NCBI GenBank assembly: GCA_002245135.1
Contig: NGBS01001175.1
Span: forward strand, 1-64,000
Source of the DNA: Proteromonas lacertae
Lineage: Eukaryota
Direction of reading: 5' to 3'
DNA length: 64,000 nucleotides
The notes under the pieces were generated by a model. The model ran no database searches. It had not been told where the DNA came from and was given only the letters and a program-made list of their open reading frames with translations. Shown one piece after another: positions 1 through 47,073 of this stretch. A program made the translations under genes and the position numbers. Positions within the stretch are counted from its first letter, which is position 1. The number at the start of each line of letters is the position of its first letter.

Positions 1-1804
1 CATCATATACCCAATCTGTTTCAGAATCAGTATCATTATTATTATCTACTGATGTAACAGGTTCATTTGGAGCTTCTGAATCTACTGGTGTAACAGGTTC
101 AGTTGGGGCTTCTGAATCTACATCATCATTATTTTGAAATATTGATGAATAAGGTACTTGTCTTGTAGTACCATCTAATCTAAAATGATTAACTGTATCT
201 GGTGGAGCAGTCGGATGTGATGGTGGTGTTATTGGTGAATATACCGGTGATACCTCTCTTGGTATTTCATTATTATTACTATAATCACTTGAAACTAAAG
301 GTGGTGGTATTGGTAAATCATTTTCATCATAATTAAGTCTATATGTATCATCATCAATATCATCTTGTACTGATTGAGCTTGTTGTTGTTGTGGTGGTGG
401 TGGTGTGATGATGGTTGAGGTTGAGAGTGTTGTTGTTGTTGTGGAACAAGGTTGTTGTACCACATTATTTCTAAATTTACATTTACATTACCTCTATTAG
501 GATTTAACTTGATATTTCCATTATAATCTGCTGATAAAGCTTCTTCAACAGGTAATAATGGTGGAAAAGAACTGATATATTTTTCTTTTGTGCTAATCTA
601 TTCATATAAAACATAATTGCATCAGCATAATGATTTGTATCTCTTTGTCCTTCTTTTATATTATTTGATTCAAGTATTTTTTGAATTGTTGCTATGTAAT
701 TCATTCTATATCCATTAGAAGCAGATGATGGTAAACCCATTATATTTCTTTTGTCATAATCAGGAGGTTCAGGATATACATTACCATCTCTTAAACTAGG
801 TATTTTATACTTACTAATAAAAAATAATTCTGTAACACAATTATATATCAATACAGCTATAGAGAATGCTGTTCTTTCTTGTTGTGCAGTTATATACCAA
901 AATTTCGTTTTCATTAACTTATTAATAAATATTCTTATCTTATTAATTGTTACAGAACAATACACTTGAATCGTTTGTGAATGAATTGATCTATCTATTA
1001 AAGGTTGATTTTCATAAGGATCATCAGGTAAATCATCATCATCTTCCTCATCATCATTATTACTATCTTCATTATTATTTTGTTGTTGTTGTGAATGTGG
1101 TTGAATTGATTGATTCATAATCGTTATTATCATATATATCTTTATCATCTTCTTCATTAAAAGGTTGTGTATGATCTTTTGTTTCTTTTTGTATTTTTCT
1201 AATTCTTTTATTTTCTAATTTAACAACATTCAATCTTTCTTTAGGATGAAGCACAACAAATGGATTATTTCTTAATATATAATTAGAAGCAATACATAAT
1301 TCATCAATAGCTTTATTTAATCTATCAACAATTATTTTAACATCATTGTTTGTTTCATAGCTATATTGATATAATGATTTATTTCTTGAAAACGGTCCAT
1401 GTTGATATAACGATTTACACCAGTTAAATAACTTCATATGTACATCATATAAATTATAGATTCTATTAAACTCATGATCAGGCCATCCTACTGGTATAAG
1501 TCTCTATCAATTATTTCATCTAATCTAATCTTGGTTAACTTTTTTGCATTATCATATATAATATCTTCATAATCTTCATTACTAAGATGTTCATCATTGC
1601 CTACAATACTTATATTATCAGAATCAGTATTTTCTTCTGTTTCATCATCATCATCATCATTATTAGCATTAACAGAATTATTACTATTATTAATACCATT
1701 ATTACTAGAATTGCTACGACTGTTATTATTTGAGTTATCTACTGCTGTACCTTCATCATCATCAAATTTAATAAATCTCTACGTATTCTATTACGATTGT
1801 TCAT
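1..1804 (-). pseudogene. Large low-complexity (N/D/P/Q-rich) intronless ORF of the viral element, broken by several frameshifts and running off the window's left edge
   Basis: From ATG 1804 (MNNRNRIRRDLL...), single-base shifts join the frames into ORFs 1075-1437 and 504-1157 and a Pro/Asp-rich frame reaching position 1. No recognisable domain. Confidence 0.5.
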
Positions 1805-1856: not shown

Positions 1857-2822
1857 ATGCAACCTAAGAGTGATACTAATAATTAGGTCATAGAAGAGCA
1901 ATTTTTTTATCATCAACTGATATTATTGAAAGAGAGTCAGATGTATATACAAAGTGTTTATCAACACCTGTTATAACTGAAGAATATCAGTATATTACGT
2001 TAAACATAGGCAAGAATATCAAACAATAACATATACACTATTCAAAATGATGTTAATGAAAAGTATGTTTTGATATAGAATATTTTCATGTAAATGATCC
2101 TATAAACCCTTAAATGATCCAAGCGTAATATTAAGCGGACCAAAATTAAATACATTAGAGATAAAGATACCACAAATCATTATAGTGGTGAAGAGTTTTT
2201 AAATTATTTAACAAAGAGTATGTTAACTGAATTAAAATTTACTACACTAGTACGTAAAGATATTTTACCTGTAAAAGAAAAAGATGAAGATGAAAGTTTT
2301 AATTATTTCTTACATCCTCAAGCTGGAGATAAGATATTTGACTGGTATGATAAGACTACGAATAGATTAAAATTATATTGTGCAATATATACTCACTTTG
2401 GTAATTATATACTAACAAAAATAAAAATGCGAATGCCTAACCTATTTGGTAGGTTATTAGGTAGTAATGTAATAGATGACGAATTAATTATATTAGATAG
2501 TAATCCATCGCATAGTTGGGGTACAAAAGAACAATACTATGATCATAAATTTTTATTAACACCATCACTTATATGGTGTAATGTAATACAAGTTAGATGT
2601 AGTTGGGTTAATAATGGTGAGAATTCAGCTGTTTTAGCAAACATACCTATAACTGATATATCAAACACAAATATAACATGGGTTAATCCACAAATAGATT
2701 GGTCAACTAAAAAGATGCAATTTCATGATTATCAAAAAATAAAGTTCAATCTATCAAATGAAGATGGTTATGCTATAGATTTAACTAATATATCATTTCA
2801 ATTTGAGATAATAGTTTATTAA
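1857..2822 (+). CDS. Minor capsid (penton-like, single jelly-roll) protein; the N-terminal part (1857-~2120) is frameshifted and ORF 2220-2822 is intact
   Basis: The C-terminus VIQVRCSWV...VLANIPI...IKFNLSNEDGYAIDL..ISFQFEI fits the Polinton/PLV penton pattern. Upstream frames reconstruct to ...RAIFLSSTD...LNIARISNNNIYTI...HYSGEEFLNYL, and the last part is in frame with 2220. Confidence 0.75.
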
Positions 2823-2884
2823 ATACTTATATAATTTTTAATTTTTGATTGTATTACCATTTTTCTTACCAAAATTAAATATAT

Positions 2885-4414
2885 ATGAATAATATAACAA
2901 CTGTACCACAATCTCAAATTCATAACAGTGTTGTACCAACATTAATACCTGATTATGTCTACATTCCTATTACACCTAACCAAACAAGAGATGTAGTTGT
3001 TTTAAGTCAAACATCATCAACTGATACAATAACTTTTGAATTATCACCAGATAGTTGTATGAATTTATCAAAATCTTATCTCGATTTTGATTTAATAATC
3101 GATCCTCATATAGTATCTGCAAATCCTGGTAATCCTGCTGCAGCTGGTAATGCATATACTATAGCAGGACGAGCAGCAGCAGCATTACCAGGTCCTGCAG
3201 TAGGTGAAACTCATGCTTTAAGATTAAGAAACACAATGAATTTTAATTCAATTAAAGTATACAACAAAACAGGAACAGTATTATGCGATTTAGATAACAG
3301 CTATAATGAATATAGAGACTTAATGCATGAATTATCTTATCATTGTCCAGATGATGTGAAAGGTATTAAATATTATGATGATACATTTGATGGATGTCAT
3401 GTAGCAAAAGATAAAGCAAATGGTCAATATGAAGTAATAGATCCATTATTATTACATTATACTCCTGGTAATAGAACAAGATCTAGATGTGGTCTTAAAG
3501 AAGAACATTATATGGAAGTGATAGATCCTGTAGGAGGTGCACCAATGGTTGATATAAGAATAAAAAGGCATTGCCGATTTCATTTTGCTGATTTATTTAA
3601 TACAATTTTATCATGCAAAAGTGATATTTATTTTGGTGAAACAATTTATATTTCAATAACATTTGCAGGAATTAATTCATGGATATTATATAAGCATAAA
3701 TTAATTGCACAAACAGCTGAGGCTGATCATGATGGAGAAAGCTATTATGATGAATGGACAAGATTTATTGAAATGAATATAATAAATCCAAAATTATATG
3801 TTGCATATAATAAAAGTCCACAATGTAATGCAAATACAATTAATTATGTTACTCATCATGGTATAGATTTTACTGATTTCAATATAGTTCAGTTAGTAAA
3901 AGATACTATTACAGGTGATCCTAATTTTAGCTATAATTTTACTATTAATAGTAGTTTAGGTCCTTATGTGAAATATATATTATATAGAGTTTATATGAAT
4001 AATGTTGCAACTAGAACACCTTTACCTTTTAAGTTTGCTGATGATAGAGTTAAATGGCAAATAAATGATACACCATGTACACCAGATTATTTAAATATAA
4101 CTAAATATGAAACATTTGAAAAATTATATCCTATAATTAGAGGAACATATTTTGAGAGATGTCATCAAGAAATTGATTGGTATGAAAGATTTTTTGATAT
4201 ATTAAATTTCGGAAGTGATTCATTAACTGATATAAAATCAAGAGCAGGTAGAGATTTAAGTAAAGATTTAAAAATTACTTTTGAAGCAAGAAATCATGTT
4301 TTTGATACAAATAATACTGCTCATCATGCAGTAATGACATATCATCACAAGTTCTACATTATAACAGGTAAGATGTTAATCATCTCAGCTAGAGGAGTAG
4401 AGAAGGTGATTTAA
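2885..4414 (+). CDS. Major capsid protein (double jelly-roll), Polinton-like virus type, 509 aa
   Basis: Motifs ITFELSPDSCMNLSKSYLDFDL, FNSIKVYNKTGTVLCDLDNSYN and FADLFNTILSCKSDIYFGETIYISITFA resemble PLV MCPs. Size and position between penton and ATPase fit; intronless. Confidence 0.8.
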   Translation: MNNITTVPQSQIHNSVVPTLIPDYVYIPITPNQTRDVVVLSQTSSTDTITFELSPDSCMNLSKSYLDFDLIIDPHIVSANPGNPAAAGNAYTIAGRAAAALPGPAVGETHALRLRNTMNFNSIKVYNKTGTVLCDLDNSYNEYRDLMHELSYHCPDDVKGIKYYDDTFDGCHVAKDKANGQYEVIDPLLLHYTPGNRTRSRCGLKEEHYMEVIDPVGGAPMVDIRIKRHCRFHFADLFNTILSCKSDIYFGETIYISITFAGINSWILYKHKLIAQTAEADHDGESYYDEWTRFIEMNIINPKLYVAYNKSPQCNANTINYVTHHGIDFTDFNIVQLVKDTITGDPNFSYNFTINSSLGPYVKYILYRVYMNNVATRTPLPFKFADDRVKWQINDTPCTPDYLNITKYETFEKLYPIIRGTYFERCHQEIDWYERFFDILNFGSDSLTDIKSRAGRDLSKDLKITFEARNHVFDTNNTAHHAVMTYHHKFYIITGKMLIISARGVEKVI

Positions 4415-4467
4415 AAATTATGATTTTAATTACAATTTAATATTTCTATTGCTATTATTACTTTATT

Positions 4468-5229
4468 ATGTTTAAGTTTGAAAAAATAAATAACATAAGG
4501 GTTGAACCTGTAGATGGTGGTGAAAAATTCAATCCTAAGAAGATAGTTGGTTATGATTATTTCAATGAGCCATTTTGTAACATTTTTATAGTTGCTCGTA
4601 AAAATAGTGGTAAGACTACTCTCATCTATAATATATTAAGACATGTTTTGGATCCAAGATATAAAGAAAAACAACATGTTCACTTCTTTGTGGGAACTAT
4701 CAAACAAGACAAGTTATATGATTCAATCAAAGAATTACTCGATTATCACGAAATTGATTATGATGAAAATGATTCACTCATTGATCCAGAGTCAGGTGAG
4801 AATGTGGTAGAGAGAATGATGAAAGAAATAAATGATGTTGATAAAGATAATTATTCTTATGCTGAGCATATTATGATCTTTGATGATCTTAGTTTAGAAT
4901 TAAAAACATCAACAATAATACCTGTACTGATGAAAGAAAATAGACATTTAAAATCAAAAATTATTATTAGTAGTCAATATATAACAGATATAGTACCAGC
5001 AGCTAGATCACAAGTTGATTATTGTCTTACATTTTATGGGTTAAGTAATAGAAATCTATTTGATTTATACAACTCATTAAATATATGGATCCCTGAGTAT
5101 GAAACATTTAAAAAATTATATCTTGCAGTCACTAAACCACAATTCAATTTTTTATATATTGATAATGTTAAAAAAGTCTTTAGAGCAAATTTTAATATTA
5201 TGATTGAAGATCATTCTGAAGTTTCTTAA
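4468..5229 (+). CDS. A32-like (FtsK/HerA superfamily) genome packaging ATPase, 253 aa
   Basis: Walker A ARKNSGKT, Walker B IMIFDD, NRH arginine motif, IIISSQ sensor and ARSQVDY segment typical of Polinton/NCLDV packaging ATPases. Confidence 0.9.
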   Translation: MFKFEKINNIRVEPVDGGEKFNPKKIVGYDYFNEPFCNIFIVARKNSGKTTLIYNILRHVLDPRYKEKQHVHFFVGTIKQDKLYDSIKELLDYHEIDYDENDSLIDPESGENVVERMMKEINDVDKDNYSYAEHIMIFDDLSLELKTSTIIPVLMKENRHLKSKIIISSQYITDIVPAARSQVDYCLTFYGLSNRNLFDLYNSLNIWIPEYETFKKLYLAVTKPQFNFLYIDNVKKVFRANFNIMIEDHSEVS

Positions 5230-5284
5230 ATAATATTTTTATAAATATATATATATATATATATATATTCATTAATAAAAAATA

Positions 5285-5956
5285 ATGTTTATTGGGGATA
5301 GAAATAAAGTTGATGTATTAGATGAAGATAAATTAATAGATGATATTACAAATAATATTACAGATAAATTAGATGAAGTGAAAGATCAAATTCTAACAGT
5401 ATGTAATACAATAAATAGTGTAGTAAATAATATACCTCGTACTATAATACCAAGACCTTATTGTTTGCATAAACAACATACATTTTATTCTATGAAAAGA
5501 AAATATTTAGTTAATGGATCACCTGTATGGGATACTAAAATTACTAAAATACCAATCAAAATAGAGATGTTTGAGCATTTTATGAAGATTAAATTATATG
5601 ATGGTTTTACATGTAATTATAGTGGATATATAGGTCATCAATTATATTTAGATGAAGATGATATCATCAAAGCTGAACCTGGTAGAGATGAATATTTACA
5701 ACGTTATTATAATATACTACTAGGATTATACTCTAATAAATTATTCCCCATTAGAGCAACAAATGTTAAAGATACTTATCATACATTAACTAATAGACCT
5801 TATTATGAGATAAAACATACATTAGTTAATAATAATAATAATCAACCTACATTATGTATTGTAGCTGATCAATACCCTAATCAAGAATATCTTGCAATAC
5901 CAAGACAGACATTCTTCACAGATTATATGAACACAGGTATTACAGAATTCTTTTAA
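5285..5956 (+). CDS. Viral protein, putative short fiber/spike (MFIGDRN family, copy 1), 223 aa
   Basis: Starts MFIGDRN like the next ORF. Short helical segment then a beta-rich domain sharing PxPY, IPIK, IK[L/I]Y, YLD and FP motifs with copy 2. Function inferred. Confidence 0.5.
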   Translation: MFIGDRNKVDVLDEDKLIDDITNNITDKLDEVKDQILTVCNTINSVVNNIPRTIIPRPYCLHKQHTFYSMKRKYLVNGSPVWDTKITKIPIKIEMFEHFMKIKLYDGFTCNYSGYIGHQLYLDEDDIIKAEPGRDEYLQRYYNILLGLYSNKLFPIRATNVKDTYHTLTNRPYYEIKHTLVNNNNNQPTLCIVADQYPNQEYLAIPRQTFFTDYMNTGITEFF

Positions 5957-6056
5957 TATAATAATAATAATAATAATAATAATACGTATATATAAATCAG
6001 TTTTAAATTTCTTGATGAATTTAATAGATTTTATATTTTTTATAATATATAAAATT

Positions 6057-6941
6057 ATGTTTATTGGTGATAGAAATAATAATACATTAGATATTGATAC
6101 AAAAGAGATTGCAAGTGAGATATCAAAAAATGTTAGTGTTAATATAGATATTCAAACATTATCAGATTCTATATCACAAAAGATTCAAATACCAACACCT
6201 AATATAACTGTAGATAGTAATAGTATATCAACCTATATAAATCAACCAATAAATGATAATACTGATACTAAAACAAAAGCAATAAAAGATGAAGTAGATC
6301 AAATTTATAATGAAGTTGATACAATAAGAAATATTGAAAGAGTTGTAGGTTGTAATGATTATAATACTGATGAAGAATTATATATGACTCAAGGTTTTGG
6401 TAAATATGATTCAATTTATAATCATCTTAAATTAATAAATATATATAACCCACAACCTTATAGTATTCAAATTACTACATGGACTGTAAAAGTTACTAGA
6501 ACAGATAATACATCATCAATTATAGATCAGATACCTATTAAAGTTACAATATTCATGAATTCTATAAGAATCAAAATTTATAATACACATCAATTAATTT
6601 ATAATGATAGATCAGATATAAAACAAATTGATATTTATCTAGATGATAATCATTTATTATCAAAATTATATAGTAATCAATCTGTATTAACTGATTTTTA
6701 TAATAAGCTTATTGAAAAATACCCTAATGATGGTAGTAATTGTATAGTATTCCCATTACAAGTTTATAATAATTCTCAATACCCATCAGAATACATACCA
6801 ACACATTTTATATTAATAAATGATAATAAACCTAATCTACATTTACAAAGTGATAGTATTGAAGGTTATCAAAAACAATGTATATTACCTGGTGTTATTG
6901 AAACTATGTATATTGATTACAGTATTATCAATCCTTTATAA
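6057..6941 (+). CDS. Viral protein, putative long fiber/spike (MFIGDRN family, copy 2), 294 aa
   Basis: Start placed at ATG 6057 (MFIGDRN) by identity with copy 1. Longer N-terminal stalk and a paralogous C-terminal domain. Confidence 0.5.
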   Translation: MFIGDRNNNTLDIDTKEIASEISKNVSVNIDIQTLSDSISQKIQIPTPNITVDSNSISTYINQPINDNTDTKTKAIKDEVDQIYNEVDTIRNIERVVGCNDYNTDEELYMTQGFGKYDSIYNHLKLINIYNPQPYSIQITTWTVKVTRTDNTSSIIDQIPIKVTIFMNSIRIKIYNTHQLIYNDRSDIKQIDIYLDDNHLLSKLYSNQSVLTDFYNKLIEKYPNDGSNCIVFPLQVYNNSQYPSEYIPTHFILINDNKPNLHLQSDSIEGYQKQCILPGVIETMYIDYSIINPL

Positions 6942-7303
6942 TATACTATTTATTACATCATCAATATCTTTTAGTATAATTTTAGTATATTTTTAGTGAA
7001 TTATAAACACCTTTTATTAATTTTAGTGAAATCCCACCATGTATTATAAAATATTTATCCCATCATCCTTTATATCCCTACCAGTAAAACCAGTAGAACT
7101 TAGAATAACATAGCTTGTAGCGACCTGTTCTACCCCTGCCGTGGCTACTGTAGAGAAAGACTATAGATCAATATTTTACTATTAATCCATCAGTAATTAA
7201 TATTTCAAATTTTTTAATTTGTTTCCTCAATATTTTAAACATTTTGGATATTTTGGGTATAGGAACACTAAATATCCTGTTTATTCATATCCTCTATAAT
7301 ATA

Positions 7304-9305
7304 TAATACCAGATGTAAAACTACCTAAAGTTGTAGATGTGTTTAATAAAATAACAACTGTAAAACATTTTAATGTTCCAACAAATATGGAACGAGTAGG
7401 AGGTATTGTATAATGCAAAATTATTAAAACTGGACTTTTTGCAGGAAAAGCTGATATATTATCAGTTAAACATAATAGAACCGAAGATACTGTTATTGCA
7501 AGAATTAAATATATGTTTGATGTAGATGAAAAGCCTGCTATAATAGAACTTAATACCACTCCAGAAGCAACAACATCTGCTGAAGAATCTATATCTACTA
7601 CTACTAGTGAAACTGAATCCACATCTACAATTCTAACAGAAACAACAACAGCAAATAGACTTCGTGCTGTTTTAAGAGAAGCAGAAACATCATCAACAGA
7701 TACAACAGCATCAACAGAAACTACTGCAACTGAGAGTACAGCTACTACAACAGGATCAACTGATACAACAGCTTCCACTGAAACAACAGAAACTGCGTCA
7801 GCAGCAACTACAGTTGAAGAAACGACAACACCAACTTCAACTCCAGAACCAACAACAACTGCTCCTCCTCCACCACCTCCAACTGTTGAAAGATTTAATG
7901 TACCAGATTTGGAATATAGTGCAATACAACTAAGAAACGATTTAACAACATACATTCCTCAATATGTTCATGTAAACCATAATGTTACAATACCAGCTGA
8001 TGGTAACTACTCTGCAAGTACTTGGGGAGATATGAAGGAAGTACAGTGAGATTAGTGGATGAAGCATCTACTCCAGAACCTACTTTCAAGTATGAAGATA
8101 AGAATGTTACATTTTATTGTAACGAAATAGGTGAAAAAGGAAAGCCTGTAGTTAAACCATATGAAACATATGTCTATACTAAAGGTAATGATATATATTT
8201 TGTATTTAAAGATCAAAAAAACTTACCAAATGATGATGCTAATTGCTATTTAGCTGCTAATCCAAATGGGGACAAATTAGAAATATCAAAATTTGATATT
8301 GCCACAACATTAAAATGTAATAGTAACAATGTATGTAGAGGTTTCACTATTCCAGATCCTAAAGATCCAGAGTTAATTACTGTAAGTGATAATGAAGATG
8401 GAAGTTATACACTTCGAGCAACTGCTAAGACAATTGGTGAAAAAGCAATGCAAGCAATGTTATCTGCATATACTCAAAATGATAATAAATATGTGTTTAT
8501 ACCTATTTCACAAGATGATGATTATTATGGAAATATATTAATGAAGTTAACAGAAGGTGTGAAATTATCAGTTACTATATTCAATGATGGTAAAATTATT
8601 AATACTGTTCCTGCTGTAGTTAGTTCAGTTATTGGTGAAATATTGAATTTACCACATTATATTGTTAATGGAACAGATAATATAACTGCAACTGCTGAAC
8701 CAACAACTACAACAGCAAAACCTAGTAGGCGTATTTTAGTTGAATCATTTGAATCAAATACAATAAATTTACCAACTGTTTATACTTCAGTTCCATTTAC
8801 TCCTTTAGTAGGTTATGAAGACAAAGTAGGTTATACAACAGCTTCAATATCAATTGATTTAACTGAAAGTGATTCAAGAAAAACAATGGAATGTAGTGGT
8901 CAAGGATTATGTAATAGAGAAACAGGTCAATGTGAATGTTATGCTGGTTATGATGGAGATGCTTGTCAAAGATTGAGCTGTCCTAATGACTGTAGTAATC
9001 ATGGTCGATGTGTGAAAGTATATGAATCATTAGAAAATGCTAATGTGAATTTATATAAAGGATTTGGAAATGATGAATATATTTATAGTTGTATTTGTGA
9101 TGCTGGTCATCGTGGAAGTGATTGTAGTTTATTAGAATGTCCATCATCTGTAGATCCAATGAAAGCAACAAATGATAAAGATGATAAATCATCTGAACAA
9201 AGAGATTGTAGTGGTCGAGGTAATTGTGATTATTCAAGTGGTTTATGTAGTTGTTTTGATGGATTTTATGGTGAAGCTTGTCAAAATGCTAATACTTATG
9301 CTTAA
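7304..9305 (+). pseudogene. 5'-truncated mastigoneme-like (Ocm1/Sig1-type) EGF-repeat, Thr-rich surface protein gene
   Basis: C-terminal MECSGQGLCNRETGQCECYAGYDGDACQRLSCPNDCSNHGRC...RDCSGRGNCDYSSGLCSCF. Paralogous to 51096-53586 but lacks the signal peptide and first EGF; in-frame TAA at 7411-7413 and a frameshift near 8040. Confidence 0.75.
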
Positions 9306-9404
9306 ACACTTATAATGAATGAAATGAAATGAATCAAGATTTCTTTATTATATATTATATTATATTATATCTAAAATTGTTTGTATGAGAGTTATTATTC
9401 TTAA

Positions 9405-11039
9405 TTAAGAATCATCCTTTGAAATACTACTTCTAAATTTCTTTTTTATTACTCTATATGCTTTTGTACTATAATCATATTCAAAATAGTATTTATTCAA
9501 TATTTTCACTCCATTTTCTTCACTTTCTTCTTGTTTTAATAAAAATCTTGAATATCTCTCAATTGCTATAAATAAATAATATATTTTATATAATATATTA
9601 AATACGATTACTATTATTGAAAATACTCGATATTTCTTTAGAATAATCTTTAGTCAATGGTTGACCTACATAATTAGATATTGCTTGATATAGAGTAGAA
9701 TAACCAACTTCATTTCGTTTATACTTCTTATATGCTTTTTTACTCATTATTGATACTTGTTTCTCTATTGTATTGGTTAAATCTCCATTTGTTACTGGTT
9801 GTAATTGATTTATTACTGATGTTGAAAAACTACGATGAGATTCTTTATTACTTTTAAAACTTCTAATTGATGGAGTTCGATGTGGTGTTAAATATGAATT
9901 ATTATTATTATTATTATTATTATTATTTTGTAAAGACATCATTGATTTTGTTTCTCTTTTTATTGTATTACCAATTAATGGACTCGATGAAGGAATTGCT
10001 TGTGGTTGTTGTAATTGTGATGGTTGTTGTTGTTGGATTTGTTGTTGGAATTGTTGTTGTTGTTTTGTAAATTCATCTTGTCGATTCTCTAATAATGGTT
10101 TATATTTGGTTTCTAATTCTTTATCCACATTTATTACTCTTTCTGATTTACAGATTTCTTTATCTTTTTTGGTATTTACATCAGCTTCTAATCCTTTCAC
10201 TTCTATTTTTTGATGTTTTACTATTTGAATAAAATAGAAATAATTATAAACATATATCCTCAAATGAGAAAGTATTATTATTATTATCACTTATTATCAC
10301 TTATTATATTCAATATATATAACCAAAATAATATGTGTATATTATATTGAATATAATAAAAGTAAAAATAAATATCAAAATAATTAAATACAAAAAATAG
10401 CCTCTTTTCATCGGATTTATATAAATATATTTATTTATACATATTCTAACTGGATATGGATGTGTATCATCTATAACATTATAATCACAGGGAGTAGTAA
10501 CAGGAGTTATTTCATTTGAATTAATTATCTTATTCAATGATAAATTGTGAATATATAAAGGAGAAATATCAATTGATGGAGATAGTTTAGGGAGGTTCAC
10601 TTTTTACTAAGATATTAACAAATTACATGAATTATACAGTTAGGTTTAAATTCATCATTCAACATTGTTGAGAATATTGAGTCTTCATATTCTTTACATT
10701 TTAGATTAGGTTACTTCATCAATATCATAATATGATGATACTGTGGAACTTAGAAATTGTAACCAACCACTATCTTCTTCAGAAAATGCTCTAGATATAA
10801 AATCGATTATTTGGGGTTTACATTCCTCAATTTTGGCTTTCGTTGAAGAAAATATACTCAAAATTACATTTATCTATATACAATATCCACATAATACATC
10901 ATACTTTTTGAAGTAAGTTAAACTTGTGAAAATAATTCAATAAATCATCTAAATCCTGCTTGGATGGAGATGGTTGTACTTTCCATTCATTATTGTATTT
11001 CTTTGAAAGCGGTATGAACTTATTTGGATCAAAATTCAT
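9405..11039 (-). CDS. NELFA: NELF-A (WHSC2)-like protein, spliced; left copy with two apparent +1 indels
   Basis: Mirror copy of 49374-50996; extra bases near 10590 and 10708 relative to the right copy. Confidence 0.55.
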
Positions 11040-11145
11040 CTCAAGCCTTCAAAAATAGTTTGAATCATCCAAAAATAGTTTTGATTAACCCATTCTTTTA
11101 AAAACAAATTTAAATCAGTATTACATTTATATAAACTATAATCTA

Positions 11146-12240
11146 TTAATTTATTACTTTATCTAACACTATCACACTAAATTCAGCAATCATTTGTTTC
11201 AACAAACTTTCATTATTGTTTAATTCATGATTTTCATATTTCATTATCAATTTCCCCTTTCCATTCGCATTATAATTACTAACTCCAAATAATTTACAGA
11301 AATAATCAATCATCTTACCCACACTGTATTTCTTATCACAATATATTGAATATATTTTATTTTCATATTTTATATTATAATACAATCGATTATTTGGAGG
11401 AATTTTTGAATCTCCTTTAGCTATTCTTTTAAATCTATTTATATAGTATTATATTCAAATATCATATACTTCTGTGATTCTATCATTAATCTATTCTTCT
11501 CATTTCTTAAATATCCACTCAATGTTCCTATTCTTATTTTCACTATTCCTTTATTATCAATATATTTAGATATTTCTTCATCTAATTCTATTTTGGTATT
11601 ATTTATTAGTATTATTTTATCATCAAGTGATAGGTTATGTTTCATACAAAGTGATGATAATATTTCATTAAATTTGGTTGAGAAATTATTTATTATTAAT
11701 TTGTCTGTACAAATACCACTACTTCTAATCATTATTGTATAGAATATAATTAATACATTATTTCTATTTCATTTAAAGTCTTTTCTTTTGAATATTCTTT
11801 ATTTTTATTATCTATAAATTGATTTGACATTGCACATCTATCACAATTATGATCTAATGGATTTCTATAATACATTACTTCATAGTTCAAATTGTTATAT
11901 CAAATACCTGTGAAGTTTACAAAAACTATGATTACATTCACAACAAATGAATTTAGTTAATTCCTTGTTTTTACAACCATTCATTTCACAACTGTATGTT
12001 GATAATTCATCTACTACTTCACTAGTTTCTAAAATTCTTTTCTTATATCTATTATTTTATCGGATTTATTTTATACTCTACACAGTTATGCTTCTCATAT
12101 GACATATGATCTTTACAATACTTCTGGTGACAAAAATCACATTCAAAAGGAAGAAAATCTAAATCAATCTAAATATTAACAACACCTTTCTGATGACATT
12201 CACTAAAACTACAATAACAACCTACTTCGGTTAATTCCAT
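11146..12240 (-). CDS. ZFAND1: AN1-type zinc finger protein ZFAND1/Cuz1-like, spliced (left copy)
   Basis: MELTEVGCYCSFSECHQKDFLPFECDFCHQK.CKDH AN1 finger, a second finger, and a C-terminal AKGDSKIPPNNRLY...SVGKMID ubiquitin-like domain. Confidence 0.85.
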
Positions 12241-12379
12241 TATTTATTTCAAATACAAAAATGAAATGTATTATTCTCTGTATTTTATTGTATTTTGGTT
12301 TATTTCTTTAAATAAATAACATACAAACACATAACAAACAAAAAATCATTAAATTAAACAACAACAACAAAAATAAATA

Positions 12380-13339
12380 TTATATCTCATCAAATACAAA
12401 GCGACCAAAATCACCTTTTCGAAATCTCTCAATAAATCTTCTACTAGCAACACATTCATCACATTTTTCATTCTTACTAATCATCTTCAATACATAATCT
12501 ATATTATCAAGTTCTTCTTCACTTCCACTCAAATGTAACACTTTTCTATATTTATAATTCTTCAACTTATTCAGTTTAAACAATATAAAATCACATAATA
12601 CATCTTCATCCACTATTTTATCAGGAATACATCCAGCTAAACATAAATTCAATCCTACTTCATTATTCATATTATTATTAATTTGTAACTTTGGAATCAT
12701 TATACCTGGACTATCATAGATATATAAATCAGGATTATTATTGATTTTCAATGGATATATATTTCGAGTTAAACCAGGAGTTGCACCAACTTTTGGCACC
12801 TTTTACTATTTAATATATATATAATAAATACATCCTTTAAAATCATTCGAATTCTTTCTTATACAATTTATTATTGAAGATTTACCTACATTTGTTAAAC
12901 CAACTATTAGAAATATTGAACCCACTGTTTTGAATTTAGATGGACATGTCTTAATCATTGTTGGAATTAGTTTATTTATATTTATCTTTTGTTTTACTGA
13001 TATAAACAAACTAGATATATTCTGTTTGGAATAATATTCATTGATTTTAGGCCATTTCGATGAATCAGATAAATCACATTTATTAAATAATATCAATCGT
13101 GGTTTATTGGGAAACAGGGAATCAAAATTATGATTAGAAGTACTCAGTGGAAACTATATTCATTTTCATCTATGAATTATACTCTAGCATCACGAACTTC
13201 CATTAACATATCCACTCCTTTCACTTTCTCAGATAAAAGTCTTAAAGCTTTAGCCATATGACCAGGATACCTATAATTCATTATAACATCACATAATATA
13301 CCAGTTTATTGTGTTATTGTAAAGAAATTCATTTCTCAT
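12380..13339 (-). CDS. MTG1: Mitochondrial ribosome assembly GTPase MTG1/RbgA family, spliced (left copy)
   Basis: WYPGHMAKA, EVRDAR, NKCDL, GLTNVGKSS, GATPGLTR and DSPG motifs in circularly permuted order. Confidence 0.9.
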
Positions 13340-13387
13340 GCTTCTAAAATCAACTTTATTCAATCAAGCCTAATCAAGTTTTTGAAA

Positions 13388-16300
13388 ATGTTTTGTTTGA
13401 AATCTTTCATAGATGAAGTATTATTATCTATATTACCACCTAATTCTAATGTATTTTACTTTATTTATTTTTAATAGATAAAAGAAAGAATAGAAAAGAG
13501 TGAAAATGAGGTAGTTTTAGTTGTTGAACATAAGAATGAGATTAAAATGATAAAAATATTAGATGTTAATGAGATAAAAGAGAAGAAGATATTGAAATTC
13601 TTAGAAAATACCTCCTTATTGTTAGATTGTTGTGCTTCCTTAATATATCCTTTTCAAGTGTTTTTAAACAGTGACTGTGTTATAATATCAAGAAATTATT
13701 TCTCTAGAGACTTAAAAGAGATGATTCAAAGTAAATCTTTGTCTAATGTTGAAATATGTAATGTGATATGTTCTTTATGTGATATTATAATGATCTTAAG
13801 TGAATATGACTTAATGATAGGTAATTTAAAGAGTAGTAATGTAATATATGAAGAAAATGGCAATATAAAGTTATGTGATTTAATCCTAAATGCATTAAGA
13901 AAAGAAGATGAAATGAGAATATATGATATATGCTTCAAAAGTCCAGAAGAGATGAATGGATTAGAATATGATGAAAGAAGTGTAATTTGGTCAATTGGCT
14001 GTATATTATATGAGATGATTTGTAAGAAATTACCATTTAATGAAGATAATAATATGAATAAAACGAAAGAGAATATTGTGAGATGTAAATACAGTTTAGA
14101 TGTAGAATGTGATGATCAAGATGAAAGAAATGATATTCAGAATGTTGAAAGTGAAGAATGAAGATAGAATGAGATTGAAAGAGTTGATAAAAGAAATGAC
14201 AAAAATGAGTGAATTATTGAAAGATGATGAGAATGATTTTATGATATTCGAAGAAAGGAAGAAGTTTTTGTATAAAAATGATAAAAATAGTATTTTACTT
14301 CCAATAATCTATCCATCAGAATACTATCTTGAAAGATTGTTTGATAGAATCTTATAATTATAAACCTAACAAAAGAATATTGTCTATACTATTGATGATG
14401 AAATTATACAAACAAGATAAATCAATTATAGATAGACTGAAGTTTCATATTCATCATCAATGTAAAAATGAAAAGATGTATTGTTTAGATAGAATGATAT
14501 TTATTATTAGTACTGATTGTGAAGATAAAGGAAAAATTGTAATTGATTCAAAACACATTTGTTTCTGTAAAGAAGGGATGGATTATTTCTTCAATATACT
14601 GAAACAGATCAATCCAACAAAACTTCCAATTTGGTATAATATTAGTTATAATTTTGTCTTGTTTAAATAGTTTTTTATATTCCAATAAAATTTTAATCAA
14701 TTATCAAATCTTCAAGAAATTTATATACATTCATGTAATGTAGATTTTAATTTCATAGAATCATTTAGTTAAATCAATTCCATTCATGAAATTAAAATAT
14801 ATAAATCTTTCATGTATATCTTGATCTATTTAAATATATTATCTTGAAATAGACACACCAATTGGTTCAAAAGGATTTAGATTAATTCTTCCATATTTGC
14901 ATTTGTTAATCAACAAAAATAATGAATTGAATCTATGTGGAATGAATTTAAATGATGAATCAATGGTATTATTATCAGAAGAATTATTTAGATATGCAAA
15001 TATAAAAAAAATAGATATTATGCAAAACAAAAATATTCATTCTGTTGGATTAAAAGCTTTATTCTCCAAGTTTCCTATTTCAAAAATAGTATTTGATGTA
15101 AATGGATGTAAAGAATTATTGGTTGATAAAGATGTTCCAGAATTAATCAAATATATTAAAAGTAATAATAATGAATTAAATCTGAGTAATATGGAAATGA
15201 ATGATTATTTTTTTGATATCATTGATTTTTTTAAAATCAGAAGAATTAAGAAAAATAGGTAGATTAAATTTGTGTAGTATTATTTGTTTTTCTTTTTTAT
15301 TATGTAGATAATAAACTTAAGTCTATGAGTGTACAAATACTGATTAACAATTATACTTCATTTTATAAGTTTAAAGAACTTCAATTATGTGGGAATGATA
15401 TAGGAGATGAAGGAATGAAAATATTATCTCCTTATTTACATTTACTAAGAAGTAATGATTGTAAATTGAATTGTTCAAGTATAATAATTGTTGTTATTGT
15501 ATTGAATAGAAATGGGTTTATCTTCAGTTGGAATAAAACATTTGATGAATTATGTAGAAGAAGATCATTATATTGAAATGTTAGAGATTAACAGTATATA
15601 TGATTTATATTATTTTAATAGACAATCCAATAGGAAATAGTGGATTTAAGTCCTTGCTAAACAATTTAAAAATATTGATGGATTATGATAAAATAAATAA
15701 TGATTAATATCTCAATTGATGATGAAAGTATAATTCTGTTGGCAAGTAATCTTTAATCAATTGAAAATTGTGAAACTATAAATCTAAATGGAAACAGTGT
15801 AAGTATGAAAGGATTAGAATCAATATGTTCAAAATCATTAGAAAATGAAAATTATCCATTCATAGAAATGAAATGTTCATCGTGGACAAATGAAGAATTG
15901 GAGTATTATTTAGACTATTGTGTAAAGAAGAGAAGAAAAGATGAATATGATTTTTCCAGTATAGAATGTGATTATTCTATATAATAGATTTTGGTTTGAA
16001 TGATTCTCATATTTCAATAATTAAACAGATAAATTATAGATGGATTGATTTATCGAATAACAAAATTAGTTCTAAAGGATTGAAAGAATTAACTGATTTA
16101 TTACCAAATTCTTCAAAATATATTACTATTCATAATAATGAGATTGGAGATGAAGGAATAGAAATAACTTGTAAATATTTAAATAAGTTTACAAGGCGAA
16201 ATTATAAAAATCACCCATATTTATTGAATTTATCAAGTATTTTATATACATAATGTGAATTTATTATTTGAATAGATGTTGGTATAAGTGAAAAAGGATT

Positions 16301-16577
16301 AAAAGTGTTAATAGAGAGATTAAAAGATTATAAACCAATTAGAAATATTGATATATCAGGAAATGAATTGAATGAAAATGAATTAAGATTGATGAAAGAA
16401 AACAGAAGGATTTTTGAAGATTTGAATGAATTATGAATAACATTAAAAGAGAATATTGATAAATCCGAATTAATATCATTTTTACAAACATTTCCATCTG
16501 TAAGAAGAATAAAAGTGAATGGATTTTCAGAAAAAGAAAAGAATGATTTATCAAAAGAATTCTTTAATGTTGAATAA
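13388..16577 (+). pseudogene. Kinase-like (pseudokinase) plus RNI-type LRR protein, disrupted (left copy)
   Basis: Kinase subdomains IGNLKSSNV (no catalytic Asp), SPEE and IWSIGCILYE, followed by LRRs (NDIGDEGMKIL, NEIGDEGIEI). TAA at 15754 (CAA in the right copy), a 23-nt deletion near 14335 and further frameshifts. Confidence 0.75.
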
Positions 16578-16747
16578 TTAATTTTATTTTTATTATATTT
16601 CATTGTCAATTCTATTCATATGATTGTGATTTTGGAAATTTTCATTTATCCCAAAACTATCCCCAAATTCAATTTTTCATTAACCCAAATCCATTCAAAT
16701 TAAATAGACTTTCCCGCTTTTTAAAAAGCCAAAAATTCTTTTTGCTC

Positions 16748-19700
16748 ATGCTCACTCGTTTTGAGACTACTAGCAATAGAGTGAAGGGTTTGAGTTTCCA
16801 CCCACATCGACCTTGGTTATTAGCCAGTTTACACACAGGAAGTATCCAATTATGGGATTATCAAATGAAAGCTTTAATTGATGTATTTGATGAACATACA
16901 GCTCCAGTCCGTGGTGTTTGTTTTCATCAAAGTCAGCCTTTATTTGTGTCAGGAAGTGATGATTTCAAAATCAAAGTATGGAATTACAAACAACGAAAAT
17001 GTCTATTCACACTTCTTGGTCATTGTGATTATGTGCGAAGTGTAAAGTTTCATCCCGAATATCCTTGGATTTTGAGTAGTTCTGATGATCAAACGATAAG
17101 AATATGGAATTGGCAAAGTAGAGAATGTATATCCGTCCTTACTGGACATAACCACTATGTAATGTATGCTGAATTCCATCCAACAAAGGATTTAGTCTTA
17201 TCAACCTCCTTAGATACAACGATAAGAGTATGGGATGTATCAGCGTTAAGAAAGAAGAAAGTAAATGGAACGCCAGGTGAAGAACAACAAGCAGCTGGTT
17301 TGGGTCGTTTAAATTCCGAATTATTTGGAGTAGTAAAATTTGTTCTTGAAGGTCATGATCGATGTGTAAATTGGGCAAGTTTCCATCCAACTTTAAATTT
17401 AATAGTTTCAGGATCTGATGATAGACAAGTGAAGATATGGCGATATAATGATTCAAAGGCATGGGAAGTTGACACTTTAAGAGGACATACTGGAAATGTA
17501 AGTTGTGTATTATTCCATCCAACAAAGAATCTTATATTTAGTGACAGTGAAGATCATTCTATTCGTATATGGGATGCAACAAAGAGAATTTGTATTCAGA
17601 AGTTTAGTCGACCTCATGATAGATATTGGGTAATGGCAATGCATCCAAGTCAAGATTTAATAGCAGCAGGTCATGATAATGGTTTAATAATATTCAAATT
17701 GAATAGAGAAAGACCAGCTTATTATACCAATGGAAATGAGTTATATTATGTGAAAGATAAATATATTCGATTATATGATTATACTTCCACGAAAGATATT
17801 CCAATATCAAGTATATCTAATAATTCGAATATCCAACCAAAACAATTGATATATAATTCAATGAATCCAAGTGAAAGTAATATAATATTATTTTCCACAG
17901 CTGATGGTGGAACATATGAAATATATCGAACAGGTAAAGGTGAAAATACAAATGGAAGTGAGCCAATAAAAGGTAATGGATTAAGTGCCTTATTTACAGC
18001 TAGAAATCGTATAGCTGTATTAGAAAAAGATCGAAAGATAAGTATAAGAAGTCTTGACAATCAATTAACTAAACCAGTAACACCTCCATCAGGTAATTGG
18101 AGTGAAATATTTGCTGGTGGAATAATTGGTCGAATATTATTAAGAAGTGATGATCGAATAGTATTATTTGATACAACCAGTCGAAAACAATTAGGAAGTG
18201 CAATAGTAAATGGTGTAAAATATGTTCAATGGAATGATAATAATGAATATGTTGCATTAATGAGTAAAGATACAGTATGGATATGTAATAAAGATTTAGA
18301 AATAATCTCTACTTCGAATGAGCCAATGAGTGTAAAAGGTGGTAGTTGGGATAAAAGAGGTGCATTTATATATAGTACATTAAGTCATATAAAATATATA
18401 ATACCAAGTGGAGATAGTGGTGTAATAAGAACAATCGATTTTCCATGTTATGTGACTAAAATTGAAAATAAACATGTATATGTATTAGATAGAGATTGTA
18501 AACCTCGAAGATTAGCGATTGATCCAACTGAATATGAGTTTAAAATAGCATTAGAAAGTCGAAATATTCAAGAAGTATTAAGAATAATAAAGAGTGGTAA
18601 ATTATGTGGTGAAGCAATAATTGAATATTTACATAAGAAAGGATATCCTGAAGTTGCATTAAACTTTGTAAGTGATACATCCTCTCGATTTGATTTAGCG
18701 TTGAAATGTGGTAATATTGAAATAGCAGCTGAATGTGCAATTAGTTTAAATAAAGATGAATATTATGAGAAATTAGCTGATGTAGCTTTATCAAGAGGTA
18801 AAATATCAGTAGCTGAAATGGCTTATCAAAAGACAAAATCATTTGAGAAATTATCATATTTGTATTTATTAACAGGTAATAATGATAAATTACAGAAAAT
18901 GTATAAGATAGCAGAAATGAGACAAAATGTAATGTCCAAATATCTAAATGCATTATTATTAGGAAATGCAGAAGAAAGAGTAAAAATATTAGAAGATGCT
19001 GGTGAGAATAGTTTAGCTTATTTAACTGCTTTAACATACAATTTAAATGATAAATTAGAGAATATTCAAGCTGCTTTAGATACAAATAATATTCCAATAC
19101 CTGTAAAGAGTGAAAATAGTGAAGAATTATATCCACCCAAAACTGTAGAATTAGTAAATGATTGGGTAATTGGAGATAAAAGAAGTAATTATTTTGAATC
19201 TGCTGGAATGCCTCAAGGAAATAATAATAATAATAATGAAGATGATGATGATGATGAAGAAGAAGAAGGAGAAGAAGAAGAAGAAAACAATAAAAATGAT
19301 GAAGATGATTGGAATAAGAATGATGATAATAAAGGAAATGAAGCCAATGAATGGGGTGATGATCTTGAAATACCTGCTGATGAATTACCTGATACAATTG
19401 TAAATACATCAAATAAAAATGAAAAAGATGAATTTAGTATGGAAGAAAGTGGAAATATCGTAAGTGGAACAAGATTACCATCTGCGAAAGATTATTGGAT
19501 TGATAGTTCATCTTTAGCTGCAATTCATATAGCTGGTGGTTCAATAGAAAGTGGAATGAGATTATTAAATCGTCAAATTGGTGTAATTAACTTTGATCCA
19601 TTAAAAGAAGTATTTCGAAGTGTTTATTATGGCAGTGAAATATTTTGTCCTGGTTATTCAATAAGTCCACCAATTGGATATGAATTAATACATGATGGAA

Positions 19701-20459
19701 GTAAAGTCAATTCAATGAAGAAAACAGTACCTCCAAGTACAATAAAGTTCAGTCATTTAGTTGAGAGATTAAAAGAAGGATATAAATATTTCCAATTGGG
19801 TAAATTTACTGAAAGTATGAATACATTTTTAAAGATCTTGACGAGTTTACCATTATTAATAGTAAGTCATAAAAGTGAAAGTGATGAAGTAAAAGAATTA
19901 GTAAGTGTAAGCCGTGATTATATAACTGCTTGTCGATTAGAATTATATCGTCGAAGTATTCAATCAAATGATGGAGTTAGAGGATTAGAATTGAGTTGTT
20001 ATATGACTCATTGTAATTTACAAGCTAATCATTTGTTATTAGTATTGAATTTAGCAATGACAAGTGCTTATAAATTGAAGAATTATATAACTTCAGCTGA
20101 TTTTGCAAGAAGAATATTAGAAATCAATGAAATAAACAAACAAAATAATGCTCAATTAAAAGATAAAGTATATATATAAATATATATATATTATTATTAT
20201 TATTATATAATAGACACTTAAAGTATTACAAGCATCTGAGAAACAAGGAAGAAATGAAAATGAATTGAATTATAATAGTCAAAATCAATGGGTAATAAAC
20301 TGTGAGAAATTTTTACCATTAAATAAAAGTGATGAAATAATGAAATGTCCATATTGTGGATCTAGTTATGATGTGAGTTATAAAGGTAAGTTATGTTTGA
20401 CTTGTAATTTGAGTGAAGTTGGTTTACAGACACTTGGTTTAGTTTGTAGTTTAAATTAA
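16748..20459 (+). CDS. COPA: Coatomer subunit alpha (left copy), one intron at 20168-20213
   Basis: MLTRFETTSNRVKGLSFHP start, WD40 repeats, alpha-solenoid, and C-terminal CPYCGS...CLTCNLSEVG zinc site. Confidence 0.97.
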
Positions 20460-20670
20460 GCTTAATGAAATACAATTATTCTTCTTGTTAATTGAAATCA
20501 TATTATTAATTGTTGTTTGATTTGATTTGATTATTGCAAATGAAAGAAGAAATGTTTAATGTGAAAATAAAATGAAAAGAAAAACAATATTCTGTTTATA
20601 AATAGACATTTCTGTAATTTTAAGCCTCGTCAAACGAATAAATATTTTGAAACATCAAACAAGTTTGAAA

Positions 20671-21391
20671 ATGTTTAATTTTACATTTTTACATGATAAT
20701 GTAATGAAATCTGTATTTCCGCCTAATGTGAAGGTACTGTTTTTGAATTATTTTGAATAGATAAAAGAAAGAATAGAAAAGAGTGTTAATGAGGTAGTTT
20801 TAGTTGTACAACATGAAGATGATATTAAAATGATGAAAGTGTTAAATGTAGGTGATGTAGAAGAAAAAAGTATATTAAAATTCCATGAAATGAATTTGTT
20901 ATTGTTAGATTTCTGTTTATCGTTTGTTAATCCTTCTAAAATGTTTGTAAAGAATGATTGTATGATAATATTACGAGAATATTACTCTAGAGACTTAGAA
21001 GGGGTAATTCAAAGTAAATCTTTGTTAAGTGTTGAAATATGTAATGTGATATGTTATTTATGGAATTGTACTATTATTTAAAAATTGTATTTCAAAGAAA
21101 AGAAATCAGTTTAATAAAAACTATGATTTTTTAGGTATAAATGTTGTTTTATAAAGAAATAGATGTAAAGGATTGAAAGAATTAACAGATTCTTTATCAA
21201 GAGATGTAGAACATATTTCAATATTTAATAATCCTATTGGAGATGAAGGAATAGAGATAATATGTAAATACTTAGATAAATTTGTTGAATATCAACCATC
21301 TTTGAATTTATCTAGTATTTTTTGAATATATAATGGATTATCAGAAGAAGTAAAGAAAGAAATATGTAAAAATTATATTAATGTTGAATAA
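20671..21391 (+). pseudogene. Internally deleted remnant of a third pseudokinase-LRR paralog
   Basis: The 5' part parallels 13388 onward (IKERIEKS.NEVVLVV, YYSRDL, VEICNVI) and joins almost directly to the terminal LRR (NNPIGDEGIEIICKYL...NVE*). Confidence 0.7.
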
Positions 21392-25802: not shown

Positions 25803-26653
25803 TTAGCTGTTACTAGGAGTAACAATCCTACTAATACTTAAATTCTTATGACTAGCATCAATACCTGAATCTTCATAATCCCATCGGTCTATATTCTCCT
25901 TCAGTCTCTCCAAATTCTTAGTAAATGATAAATCAGTTTTGTCATAATCCAATTTACTCACTTTATCATAATAATTATGTGCTTTATCAACAGCCAATTC
26001 TTGTTGATTTGAAGTAGTTCTTAAAAATATACAATAATTCACTACTAAAGCAATTGTGACTGAATGTTTCATTAAAATGTCACTACTATTTGAAATTTCA
26101 AATGCTTTAAGATAACTATTACCTGCTTCTTCTAAACATTTTATACAATCCTTTTCTTTAGAATATGCCTTTGATTCTATGATATATCGATAATAATCAC
26201 CTTTTGTTTTCAGTAAGAGAGTAAGACTAATATCAGAATATTCATAGTTTGTTAAATGTACATCAATTACGTTGATTAAATCACTGCATCTTGATAGTAA
26301 TTCATTTAAAATACACACTCTGTATTGCGAACACAAATCTGGCTATTTAATATATAAGAAAATATGTAAAATATACTCTATCAAAGTCTAAATCATTCTC
26401 TACTTGAGTAATTTTGTGTAATGATTCTCTTAAACTTTTTATGGTTAAATAATATGCACTAAGAGCTGATTTTAAATTATCTAAACTTAATAACTGTTCT
26501 ATTTTTAACAATTTTAAGGAAGCATAAAAACCCAAATCCTAATAATAAGATTATATATAATAGTACTTTCAAATCTGTTTCTGTACTAATGCTACATAAT
26601 TTAGCAAGAGTATTTAAGTCGTCTAAAGTCTCTATAAATGAAAAATTAATCAT
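25803..26653 (-). CDS. Divergent 14-3-3-like protein A, spliced
   Basis: KTKGDYYRYIIE, IALVVNYCIF and LKENIDRW correspond to 14-3-3 helices 5, 7 and 9. Confidence 0.75.
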
Positions 26654-26806
26654 TAAATTCTTTTTTGTTCGAAATTTTTCGATAACCCAAAATATTAAAA
26701 ACCTCACAATTTCCTTTTAAACCTTAAAAACAAATGTACAAAAACATAACACATTTTATTTAACAAATTTACATTTATTGAAGAAAAATCATTTACATTT
26801 ACACAT

Positions 26807-27623
26807 TTAAACTGTTACTTCATGATGAAGTTGGCTATAACTCATATATTTTCTTTGGTTTCCCAAACCAATATCTTGATGATCCCATTTTTCAATGTTA
26901 TCCTTTAATAGATTCAAATATTTCACTAATTCTGAATCATTCTTGTCATACTCCACATGAGATATACTTTCAAAACATTCAGATGCTTTCTTATATGCTA
27001 ACTGATGTTGTTGATAATTATCACGTAAAAATATTGTAAAATTTACCATAAATGACACTTTACAAGATAATGGGATTGAATCATCTCTTTTATATACTTC
27101 TTCACCATCAAGATATGATTTATATGCACTTTCTATATATTCAGCATAGTTATTATCTTCTGGGTATAGCTCGATAATGTATCTATAATAATCCCCTTTA
27201 ATCTTGTATAAATCCAAGAGAGAATGACTATCATAATCCATAGTAAGTTGGTTTTCATCTATCAGGTCGATCAGCTTTACACAAAGATCACGTAATTCTT
27301 CTTGAACTATTTGATGGTATCTTGATAACAAATCAGGACGAATTTCTGAATCAAAACTCTCTTCTTTCTTAACTATTTCGCTTATTGTCCGCCTAATGTT
27401 CTTTACTACCAAATAATAACTTGATGATGCTAAATGAATTGTTTTAGGTGTTAATTTTTGGCGGCATGATAAGAGTTGTACAGCCGAAGCATAACTTAAA
27501 GCCTACAATAACAATGTGAGAAATAAATACTGTTAAATCCTTTTCACTACTAAAAACGCACAATCCTTCTAACGTATGGATGTCATTAATTTCACTAATA
27601 AAATTAAAAGTGAGAGCCGACAT
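26807..27623 (-). CDS. Divergent 14-3-3-like protein B, spliced (tandem paralog of A)
   Basis: ELRDLCVKLIDLID, YKIKGDYYRYIIE, VNFTIF and LLKDNIEKW. Confidence 0.78.
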
Positions 27624-47025: not shown

Positions 47026-47073
47026 TTTCAAAAACTTGATTAGGCTTGATTGAATAAAGTTGATTTTAGAAGC

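What the first reader, a model, noticed from the sequence alone, without database searches (positions are those of the whole stretch)
1857..6941. Endogenous Polinton-like virus virion module (penton, MCP, packaging ATPase, two fiber-like genes) in a protist chromosome
Seen: five co-oriented intronless ORFs with 53-100 nt spacers in an intron-rich genome; MCP, ATPase and both downstream ORFs are uninterrupted. Established: penton, double jelly-roll MCP and A32 ATPase define Polinton/PLV/MELD-type virions. Inference: this is the morphogenesis arm of a recently integrated, possibly still virion-competent and probably undescribed dsDNA virus, with replication and integration genes left of the window. 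The Walker A starts with Ala (ARKNSGKT) and the MCP has an Ala/Gly/Pro loop (NPGNPAAAG...AAALPGPAVG).
Basis: partly seen in the sequence, partly recalled or inferred. Interest (0 to 1): 0.9.

Follow-up and report, generated by a model that had tools for sequence, protein, structure and literature searches.

The report
Polinton-like virus capsid genes in protist
A protist chromosome carries five tightly packed, intron-free genes (a predicted major capsid, a likely vertex capsid, a likely DNA-packaging motor and two unknowns) that are likely part of an integrated Polinton-like virus whose capsid family appears to be already catalogued in a gut protist, so the find is real but mostly ordinary.

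Summary
Real, and the viral reading holds. ORF 2885-4414 is predicted as a double jelly-roll capsid (pLDDT 84.7; Z 23.4 to PBCV-1). ORF 4468-5229 is an A32-type packaging ATPase. Gene 1857-2822 belongs to a family that matches the PBCV-1 vertex protein. Distant relatives keep the order penton, MCP, ATPase in 23 of 30 loci, and some carry pPolB, rve integrase or helicases. Corrections: (1) the penton carries five single-base frameshifts, probably consensus errors, but unproven; (2) Ala at the start of Walker A is the family norm (35 of 45); (3) the Ala/Gly/Pro stretch is a variable, low-confidence loop; (4) 'fibre-like' is untested, since the two downstream paralogues have no homologue or fold; (5) no terminus, replicase or integrase was found, so 'recent' and 'virion-competent' are open; (6) 'undescribed' is too strong. 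By eye, the same MCP family is in the supplement of Bellas et al. 2023, as 285 hits in Proteromonas lacertae, confirmed there by the same folding test. What looks new is the gene context and an unnamed clade of full-length relatives found only in Logan assemblies. Verdict: new member of a known kind; modest interest.

The parts
1857..2822 (+). Minor capsid (penton)-family gene, five single-base frameshifts in its first third; open from ATG only 2220-2822
   Evidence: 62% and 40% identical to 324 and 322 aa relatives; break positions; matches a 34-member family that precedes the MCP in distant loci, E 1.6e-9; family profile hits PBCV-1 P1v1, E 9.2e-5
2885..4414 (+). Major capsid protein, predicted double jelly-roll, 509 aa
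   Evidence: AlphaFold2 pLDDT 84.7, pTM 0.86; Foldseek E 1.2e-12 to iridovirus MCP; Z 23.4, rmsd 4.0, 364 aligned to a PBCV-1 capsid chain
4468..5229 (+). A32/FtsK-type genome-packaging ATPase, 253 aa
   Evidence: Pox_A32 E 4.8e-4, below the curated cut-off; family profile hits STIV B204 E 1.7e-7; 87% identical to nearest relatives
5285..5956 (+). ORF4, 223 aa, unknown; paralogue of ORF5; candidate spike by position only
   Evidence: 26% identity over 170 aa to ORF5, E 4e-8; no family or homologue
6057..6941 (+). ORF5, 294 aa, unknown; paralogue of ORF4
   Evidence: shared N-terminal MFIGDRN; no family or solved relative
1..1804 (-). Divergent low-complexity coding region, likely one long frameshifted gene running off the window; viral or host unresolved
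   Evidence: five overlapping stop-free segments in changing frames tile 1778 to 2; no significant match
6942..7342 (.). Zone that must hold the right virus-host junction; no terminus identified
   Evidence: no repeat partner in the window; similarity to the host mucin paralogue starts at 7343
7343..9305 (+). Host Thr-rich mucin-like/EGF gene (right flank), with a stop and a frameshift; paralogue at 51099-53440
   Evidence: EGF domains; paralogue alignment

Best explanation
The block 1857-6941 encodes a predicted double jelly-roll major capsid, a likely penton and a likely packaging ATPase, and is likely the virion-building arm of a Polinton-like virus integrated, probably as one of many copies, in the chromosome of an AT-rich flagellated protist. 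By established knowledge of PRD1-adenovirus-lineage viruses, MCP trimers would tile an icosahedral shell, penton pentamers would close the vertices and the ATPase would pump the linear DNA in. The two paralogous orphans are inferred to be host-attachment spikes, from position only. Replication and integration genes are inferred to lie left of the window, most likely pPolB or a helicase plus an rve integrase as in distant relatives. The five penton frameshifts are more likely consensus errors than decay (about 60:40). Shown: fold, homologies, gene order, breaks. Inferred: integration mechanism, copy number, spikes, intactness, host lineage (Proteromonas-like gut stramenopile).
For: Fold. ATPase. 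Penton. Same gene order in 23 of 30 loci that hold all three genes, out of 85 fetched. pPolB in L020 and L041, rve in L020, L027, L041 and L078, PIF1 helicase in L015 and L055, primase-helicase in L078 and L001 (30 proteins scanned). Near relatives of the three genes share contig lengths such as 10216, 8989 and 7277, an indirect sign of linkage. Host genes are contiguous on the right. For errors: identity in the frameshifted third is 71/105 against 57/106 and 74/107 downstream, with no stop codons; all five breaks fall in 324 nt and none in the next 4,491 coding nt, p about 1e-6 if uniform; stray single-base indels also occur in host genes; Bellas 2023 reports such artefacts in multi-copy elements. 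A published homologous MCP has 285 hits in one Proteromonas assembly.
Against: No TIR, target-site duplication, replicase, integrase or protease was found in the window. The left end and the host's whole genome could not be read. The penton model was low-confidence (pLDDT 51.5) and gave no significant fold match: best Z 3.7, no Foldseek hit at E 0.001. The penton indels are not enriched at homopolymers (3 of 5 against 45% background). Distant relatives place a long fibre after the ATPase, but ORF4/5 do not match it. Distant loci are only 28-48% identical in the ATPase, so their replication genes need not be this element's. The link to the published family is by eye only.
Confidence: 0.7

Rival explanations
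1. A decaying relic: the element is a real integrated PLV, but the penton and the left-hand gene are truly broken, so this copy cannot build virions by itself.
For: Five frameshifts in the penton and about four more in the left gene; the flanking host mucin copy has a stop and a frameshift; no terminus found; indels not enriched at homopolymers.
Against: No nonsense codons and no loss of identity in the broken third; 4,491 coding nt downstream are intact.
Confidence: 0.2
2. Assembly chimera: a viral copy from another locus, or a free virus in the culture, joined to host DNA at the repetitive mucin gene.
For: The junction lies beside a repetitive paralogous mucin gene at the end of a 12.8-kb inverted duplication; the other arm continues into host genes.
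Against: Viral and host genes have similar GC3 (0.07-0.18 against 0.09-0.23); the family is reported in protist assemblies.
Confidence: 0.06
3. A fragment of a giant virus (Nucleocytoviricota), a Mriyavirus-like element or a virophage rather than a PLV.
For: The best structural matches are NCLDV capsids (Z 22-23.4), above Sputnik (18.7) and mavirus (17.8). Some PLV-sized groups have NCLDV-like modules (10.64898/2026.06.19.733378). One distant locus carries VLTF3.
Against: All structural matches are at most 13% identical, so the ranking cannot assign a class. Sequence relatives lie on compact contigs with PLV gene content. No NCLDV core gene among the window ORFs scanned.
Confidence: 0.04

Closest known systems
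Proteromonas lacertae endogenous MCP cluster (Bellas et al. 2023, PMC10120064, Tables S1, S3, S4)
   Same: By eye the printed 450-aa representative shares motifs in the same order along the whole protein, for example NLSKSYL, FTINSS.GPY and LNFGSD. It was confirmed there by Colabfold and Foldseek to the PBCV-1 capsid, and has 285 hits in one cluster outside the named groups.
   Different: The paper lists MCPs only and does not name Proteromonas in its main text. I saw no description of the penton, ATPase, orphan genes or gene order. No score was computed against the published sequence.
Environmental PLV-like contigs L001-L085 (IMG/VR, JGI and other metagenomes)
   Same: Homologous penton, MCP and ATPase; same order in 23 of 30 loci; same Ala/Ser-starting Walker A.
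   Different: Only 28-48% ATPase identity. Most have a small ORF between MCP and ATPase and a long fibre after it; the window has neither and has two orphan paralogues instead.
Blastocystis MELD virus (Starrett et al. 2021, PMC8502044)
   Same: Midsize dsDNA virus of a gut stramenopile with unrecognisable virion proteins, plus PolB and integrase.
   Different: Sequences were not compared. The one 'MELD virus sp.' structural hit is 13% identical. The window's host has DRC7, while Blastocystis is flagellum-less (recalled).
Maverick-Polintons (Polintoviricetes) and virophages
   Same: Capsid module of MCP, penton and A32 ATPase.
   Different: No protease, pPolB or rve in the window; no sequence-level match to solved virophage capsids.

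Membership tests
Polinton-like virus | Double jelly-roll major capsid protein | tested here: met
Polinton-like virus | A32-like packaging ATPase | tested here: met
   Pox_A32 E 4.8e-4; STIV B204 E 1.7e-7 against cellular ATPases E 0.054 or worse; 14 of 47 relatives carry PF04665
Polinton-like virus | Minor capsid protein, by sequence homology | tested here: met
   family profile hits PBCV-1 P1v1 at E 9.2e-5 over profile positions 11-96 only; that P1 is the penton is recalled
Polinton-like virus | Minor capsid protein, single jelly-roll fold | tested here: inconclusive
   model of relative P0246 pLDDT 51.5; mavirus penton Z 3.1 among noise
Polinton-like virus | 15-40 kb element bounded by terminal inverted repeats | tested here: inconclusive
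   no repeat partner for 6941-7345 in the window; left end outside; no genome held
Polinton-like virus | Replicase (pPolB or helicase/primase) and integrase (rve or YR) | tested here: inconclusive
   0 of 14 candidate replication/integration proteins from relatives match the window; present in distant relatives; sequence left of the window not available
Maverick-Polinton (Polintoviricetes) | pPolB, rve and cysteine protease together | not testable with these tools
   element incomplete in the window
Virophage (Virophaviricetes) | Virophage-type MCP and cysteine protease | tested here: inconclusive
   no sequence hit to solved virophage MCPs; structural Z below NCLDV capsids; no reference tree
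Published Proteromonas MCP cluster | MCP homologous over its length to the cluster representative | tested here: met
   by eye only, motifs in order along the protein; no score computed
Trimeric viral fibre (ORF4, ORF5) | Trimeric shaft and knob fold, or homology to known fibres | tested here: inconclusive
   no family, solved relative or homologue; no structure model available

The most novel reading that the evidence does not exclude
An unclassified, still active clade of Polinton-like viruses of gut opalinate protists. It is widespread in public sequencing runs with full-length genes, has fast-changing capsid loops around a conserved motor (ATPase 87%, penton 62%, MCP 53% identical to the nearest relatives), and uses a new family of paired attachment proteins in place of the usual long fibre. 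It could be a parasite of giant viruses in the vertebrate gut.
Probability: 0.25. Interest if true: 0.6.

Novelty: new member of a known kind. Interest (0 to 1): 0.3.

Why it matters
Endogenous PLVs are common in protists (over 35,000 MCP hits in 462 genomes; PMC10120064), so one more copy adds little. The value is narrower. It gives gene context to an MCP cluster that seems known only as a table entry. It shows a well-supported clade of full-length relatives held only in unnamed Logan assemblies. It offers two orphan proteins as candidate receptor-binding proteins. If virions were shown, it would be a tractable DNA virus of a gut protist.

Tried and rejected
No whole genome held, so no copy count or left extension. 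The protein atlas did not complete. Trimer prediction of ORF4 gave no verdict: score 0.01, alignment not used, fold uncertain; it is no evidence either way. IMG/VR scans with the MCP, penton, ORF4 and the broad ATPase alignment found no relative; a narrower ATPase alignment found 5 loci. Sequence searches of the PDB with the MCP, its profile and ORF5 found nothing. No Pfam family marks the MCP family (1 weak unrelated hit among 33 relatives). No ATPase match in the phage collection. ORF4/5 are not penton paralogues by profile comparison (probability 0.1). The second arm of the inverted duplication is not an empty site, because similarity fades inside the mucin genes. Three apparent frame hops inside the MCP lie in a divergent loop of an open frame and were treated as alignment noise. 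Earlier scan findings: nothing listed. Literature searches for a description of this element found only passing mentions.
Full report
Observation. The window holds four uninterrupted co-oriented ORFs at 2885-4414, 4468-5229, 5285-5956 and 6057-6941, with spacers of 53-100 nt. The fifth gene starts at ATG 1857 but is open from an ATG only at 2220-2822. A search with that piece found 2 relatives of 324 and 322 aa. A frameshift-aware alignment places five single-base breaks near 1882, 2012, 2068, 2106 and 2177. To the right lie eukaryotic genes: a mucin-like EGF gene, coatomer alpha, 14-3-3, APC4, DRC7 and Hsp70. DRC7 indicates a flagellated host (established knowledge). There is no compositional step at the block, and GC3 is like that of host genes.

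Major capsid protein. The ORF has no Pfam family and no solved sequence relative. Seven relatives at 33-54% identity, all from Logan, were found among 7,995 candidates scored. Their profile reached 261 representatives at E 0.001 or better. With 133 sequences, AlphaFold2 gave pLDDT 84.7 and pTM 0.86. Foldseek's best PDB matches are capsids of Singapore grouper iridovirus (E 1.2e-12), PBCV-1, mavirus, Sputnik and faustovirus. VIA-align gives Z 23.4 (rmsd 4.0, 364 residues) to a PBCV-1 capsid chain, 18.7 to Sputnik, 17.8 to mavirus and about 14 to adenovirus hexons. BFVD agrees, at 13% identity or less. The Ala/Gly/Pro stretch is one of two segments with pLDDT under 50 (83-91 and 197-214). It is largely absent in 5 of 7 relatives, a sixth being a fragment. 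Against the nearest relative the three loops are 9/34, 28/89 and 5/22 identical, while the core blocks are 58-69% identical. That these loops are the outward towers is inferred from the usual jelly-roll topology.

ATPase. It hits Pox_A32 weakly. A profile of 45 sequences hits the STIV B204 packaging NTPase at E 1.7e-7 and cellular ATPases at 0.054 or worse. It has 47 relatives, the nearest 87% identical. The first Walker A position is Ala in 35 of 45 aligned rows, Ser in 9, Cys in 1 and never Gly, so it is a family trait. In a quick IQ-TREE run of 61 rows (relatives under 200 aa left out, 14 of 85 loci added, midpoint root, no reference groups) the window sits in a 12-row clade with SH-aLRT 100, whose other 11 rows are Logan-only. 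A FastTree of 57 of the 133 MCPs gives a matching 14-row clade with support 100.

Penton. The gene matches a 34-member family that precedes the MCP in distant loci, at E 1.6e-9. The joint profile hits PBCV-1 P1v1 at E 9.2e-5 over its N-terminal 86 positions; that P1 is the vertex protein is recalled. The fold test on a full-length relative was inconclusive (pLDDT 51.5; best Z 3.7).

Are the breaks real? The broken third is as conserved as the rest (71/105 against 57/106 and 74/107) and has no stop codons. All five breaks fall in 324 nt and none in the following 4,491 coding nt. The 1.8 kb to the left is tiled by five overlapping stop-free segments in changing frames. The two arms of a 12.8-kb inverted duplication differ by 11 single-base indels, 10 of them extra bases in the left arm. 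Bellas et al. report false frameshifts in multi-copy elements (PMC10120064, section read). Against the error reading, the indels are not enriched at homopolymers. I put errors at about 60%.

Context from relatives. Of 85 loci fetched by ATPase similarity, 30 hold all three genes, and 23 of these have the order penton, MCP, ATPase on one strand. Among 30 neighbouring proteins scanned are pPolB (L020, L041), rve integrase (L020, L027, L041, L078), PIF1 helicase (L015, L055) and primase-helicase (L001, L078). None of 14 candidate replication/integration proteins from these loci matches the window. Near relatives of the three genes share longest-contig lengths (10216 for all three; 8989, 7277, 4941, 9425, 5898 and 2748 for pairs), which hints at linkage; those contigs could not be read.

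ORF4 and ORF5. They are paralogues (E 4e-8) that share an N-terminal MFIGDRN. No family, solved relative or homologue was found. Distant relatives carry a long fibre-like gene after the ATPase (label by appearance, with weak support), so a spike role is a positional guess.

Ends. No terminus was found. Similarity to the host mucin paralogue begins at 7343, so the right junction lies in 6942-7342.

What is known. Bellas et al. 2023 (PMC10120064; passages, sections 6 and 7, index and matching rows of the supplementary tables) list Proteromonas lacertae MCPs confirmed by Colabfold and Foldseek, with 285 hits in one cluster outside the named groups. The printed representative is homologous to this MCP by eye. 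The main text does not name Proteromonas. A 2026 preprint mentions Proteromonas PLV MCPs in passing (10.64898/2026.07.28.741278; passages and section 6). Starrett et al. describe a Blastocystis MELD virus (PMC8502044; section 3.4); sequences were not compared. Two 2026 preprints frame PLV diversity and mosaicism (10.64898/2026.06.19.733378, parts 1-3 of 5; 10.64898/2026.10.13.758929, abstract and part of one section); their supplements, not seen, may already classify this clade. Giant viruses of the vertebrate gut are reported in 10.1101/2024.03.23.586382 (passages), with no gene flux to Blastocystis. Six searches found no description of this element's gene content. The host lineage is inferred from the MCP family and DRC7, not tested.

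Verdict. It works like the virion module of a Polinton-like virus, and it meets the capsid and ATPase criteria. Termini, replicase and integrase are untested. It is a new member of a known kind, from an MCP family that seems already catalogued. Interest 0.3.

Noticed in passing
window 8109-20881 and 39569-52304: Inverted duplication of 12.8 kb at 96.7% identity (coatomer alpha, kinase, GTPase), whose outer ends fade inside paralogous mucin/EGF genes.
   Followed up: partly
window 13478-14667 versus 45679-46935: The kinase is split in the left arm and whole in the right; 10 of 11 single-base indels are extra bases in the left arm, which suggests uneven consensus quality.
   Followed up: partly
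window 30327-34451: 1,375-codon Thr/Glu/Ser-rich ORF with a long 15-nt tandem array; no Pfam family.
   Followed up: no
window 25806-27502 (-): Two adjacent divergent 14-3-3-like genes.
   Followed up: no
window 56613-59156: DRC7, a flagellar dynein-regulatory gene, in one long frame.
   Followed up: partly
L015:3-2876 and L055:119-3667: PLV replicase candidates with an HNH nuclease domain and a PIF1 helicase in one ORF.
   Followed up: no
L002 and L005 (same 31,888-nt contig): Two ATPase matches on one IMG/VR contig, one cut by the contig end; possibly a terminal repeat or concatemer.
   Followed up: no
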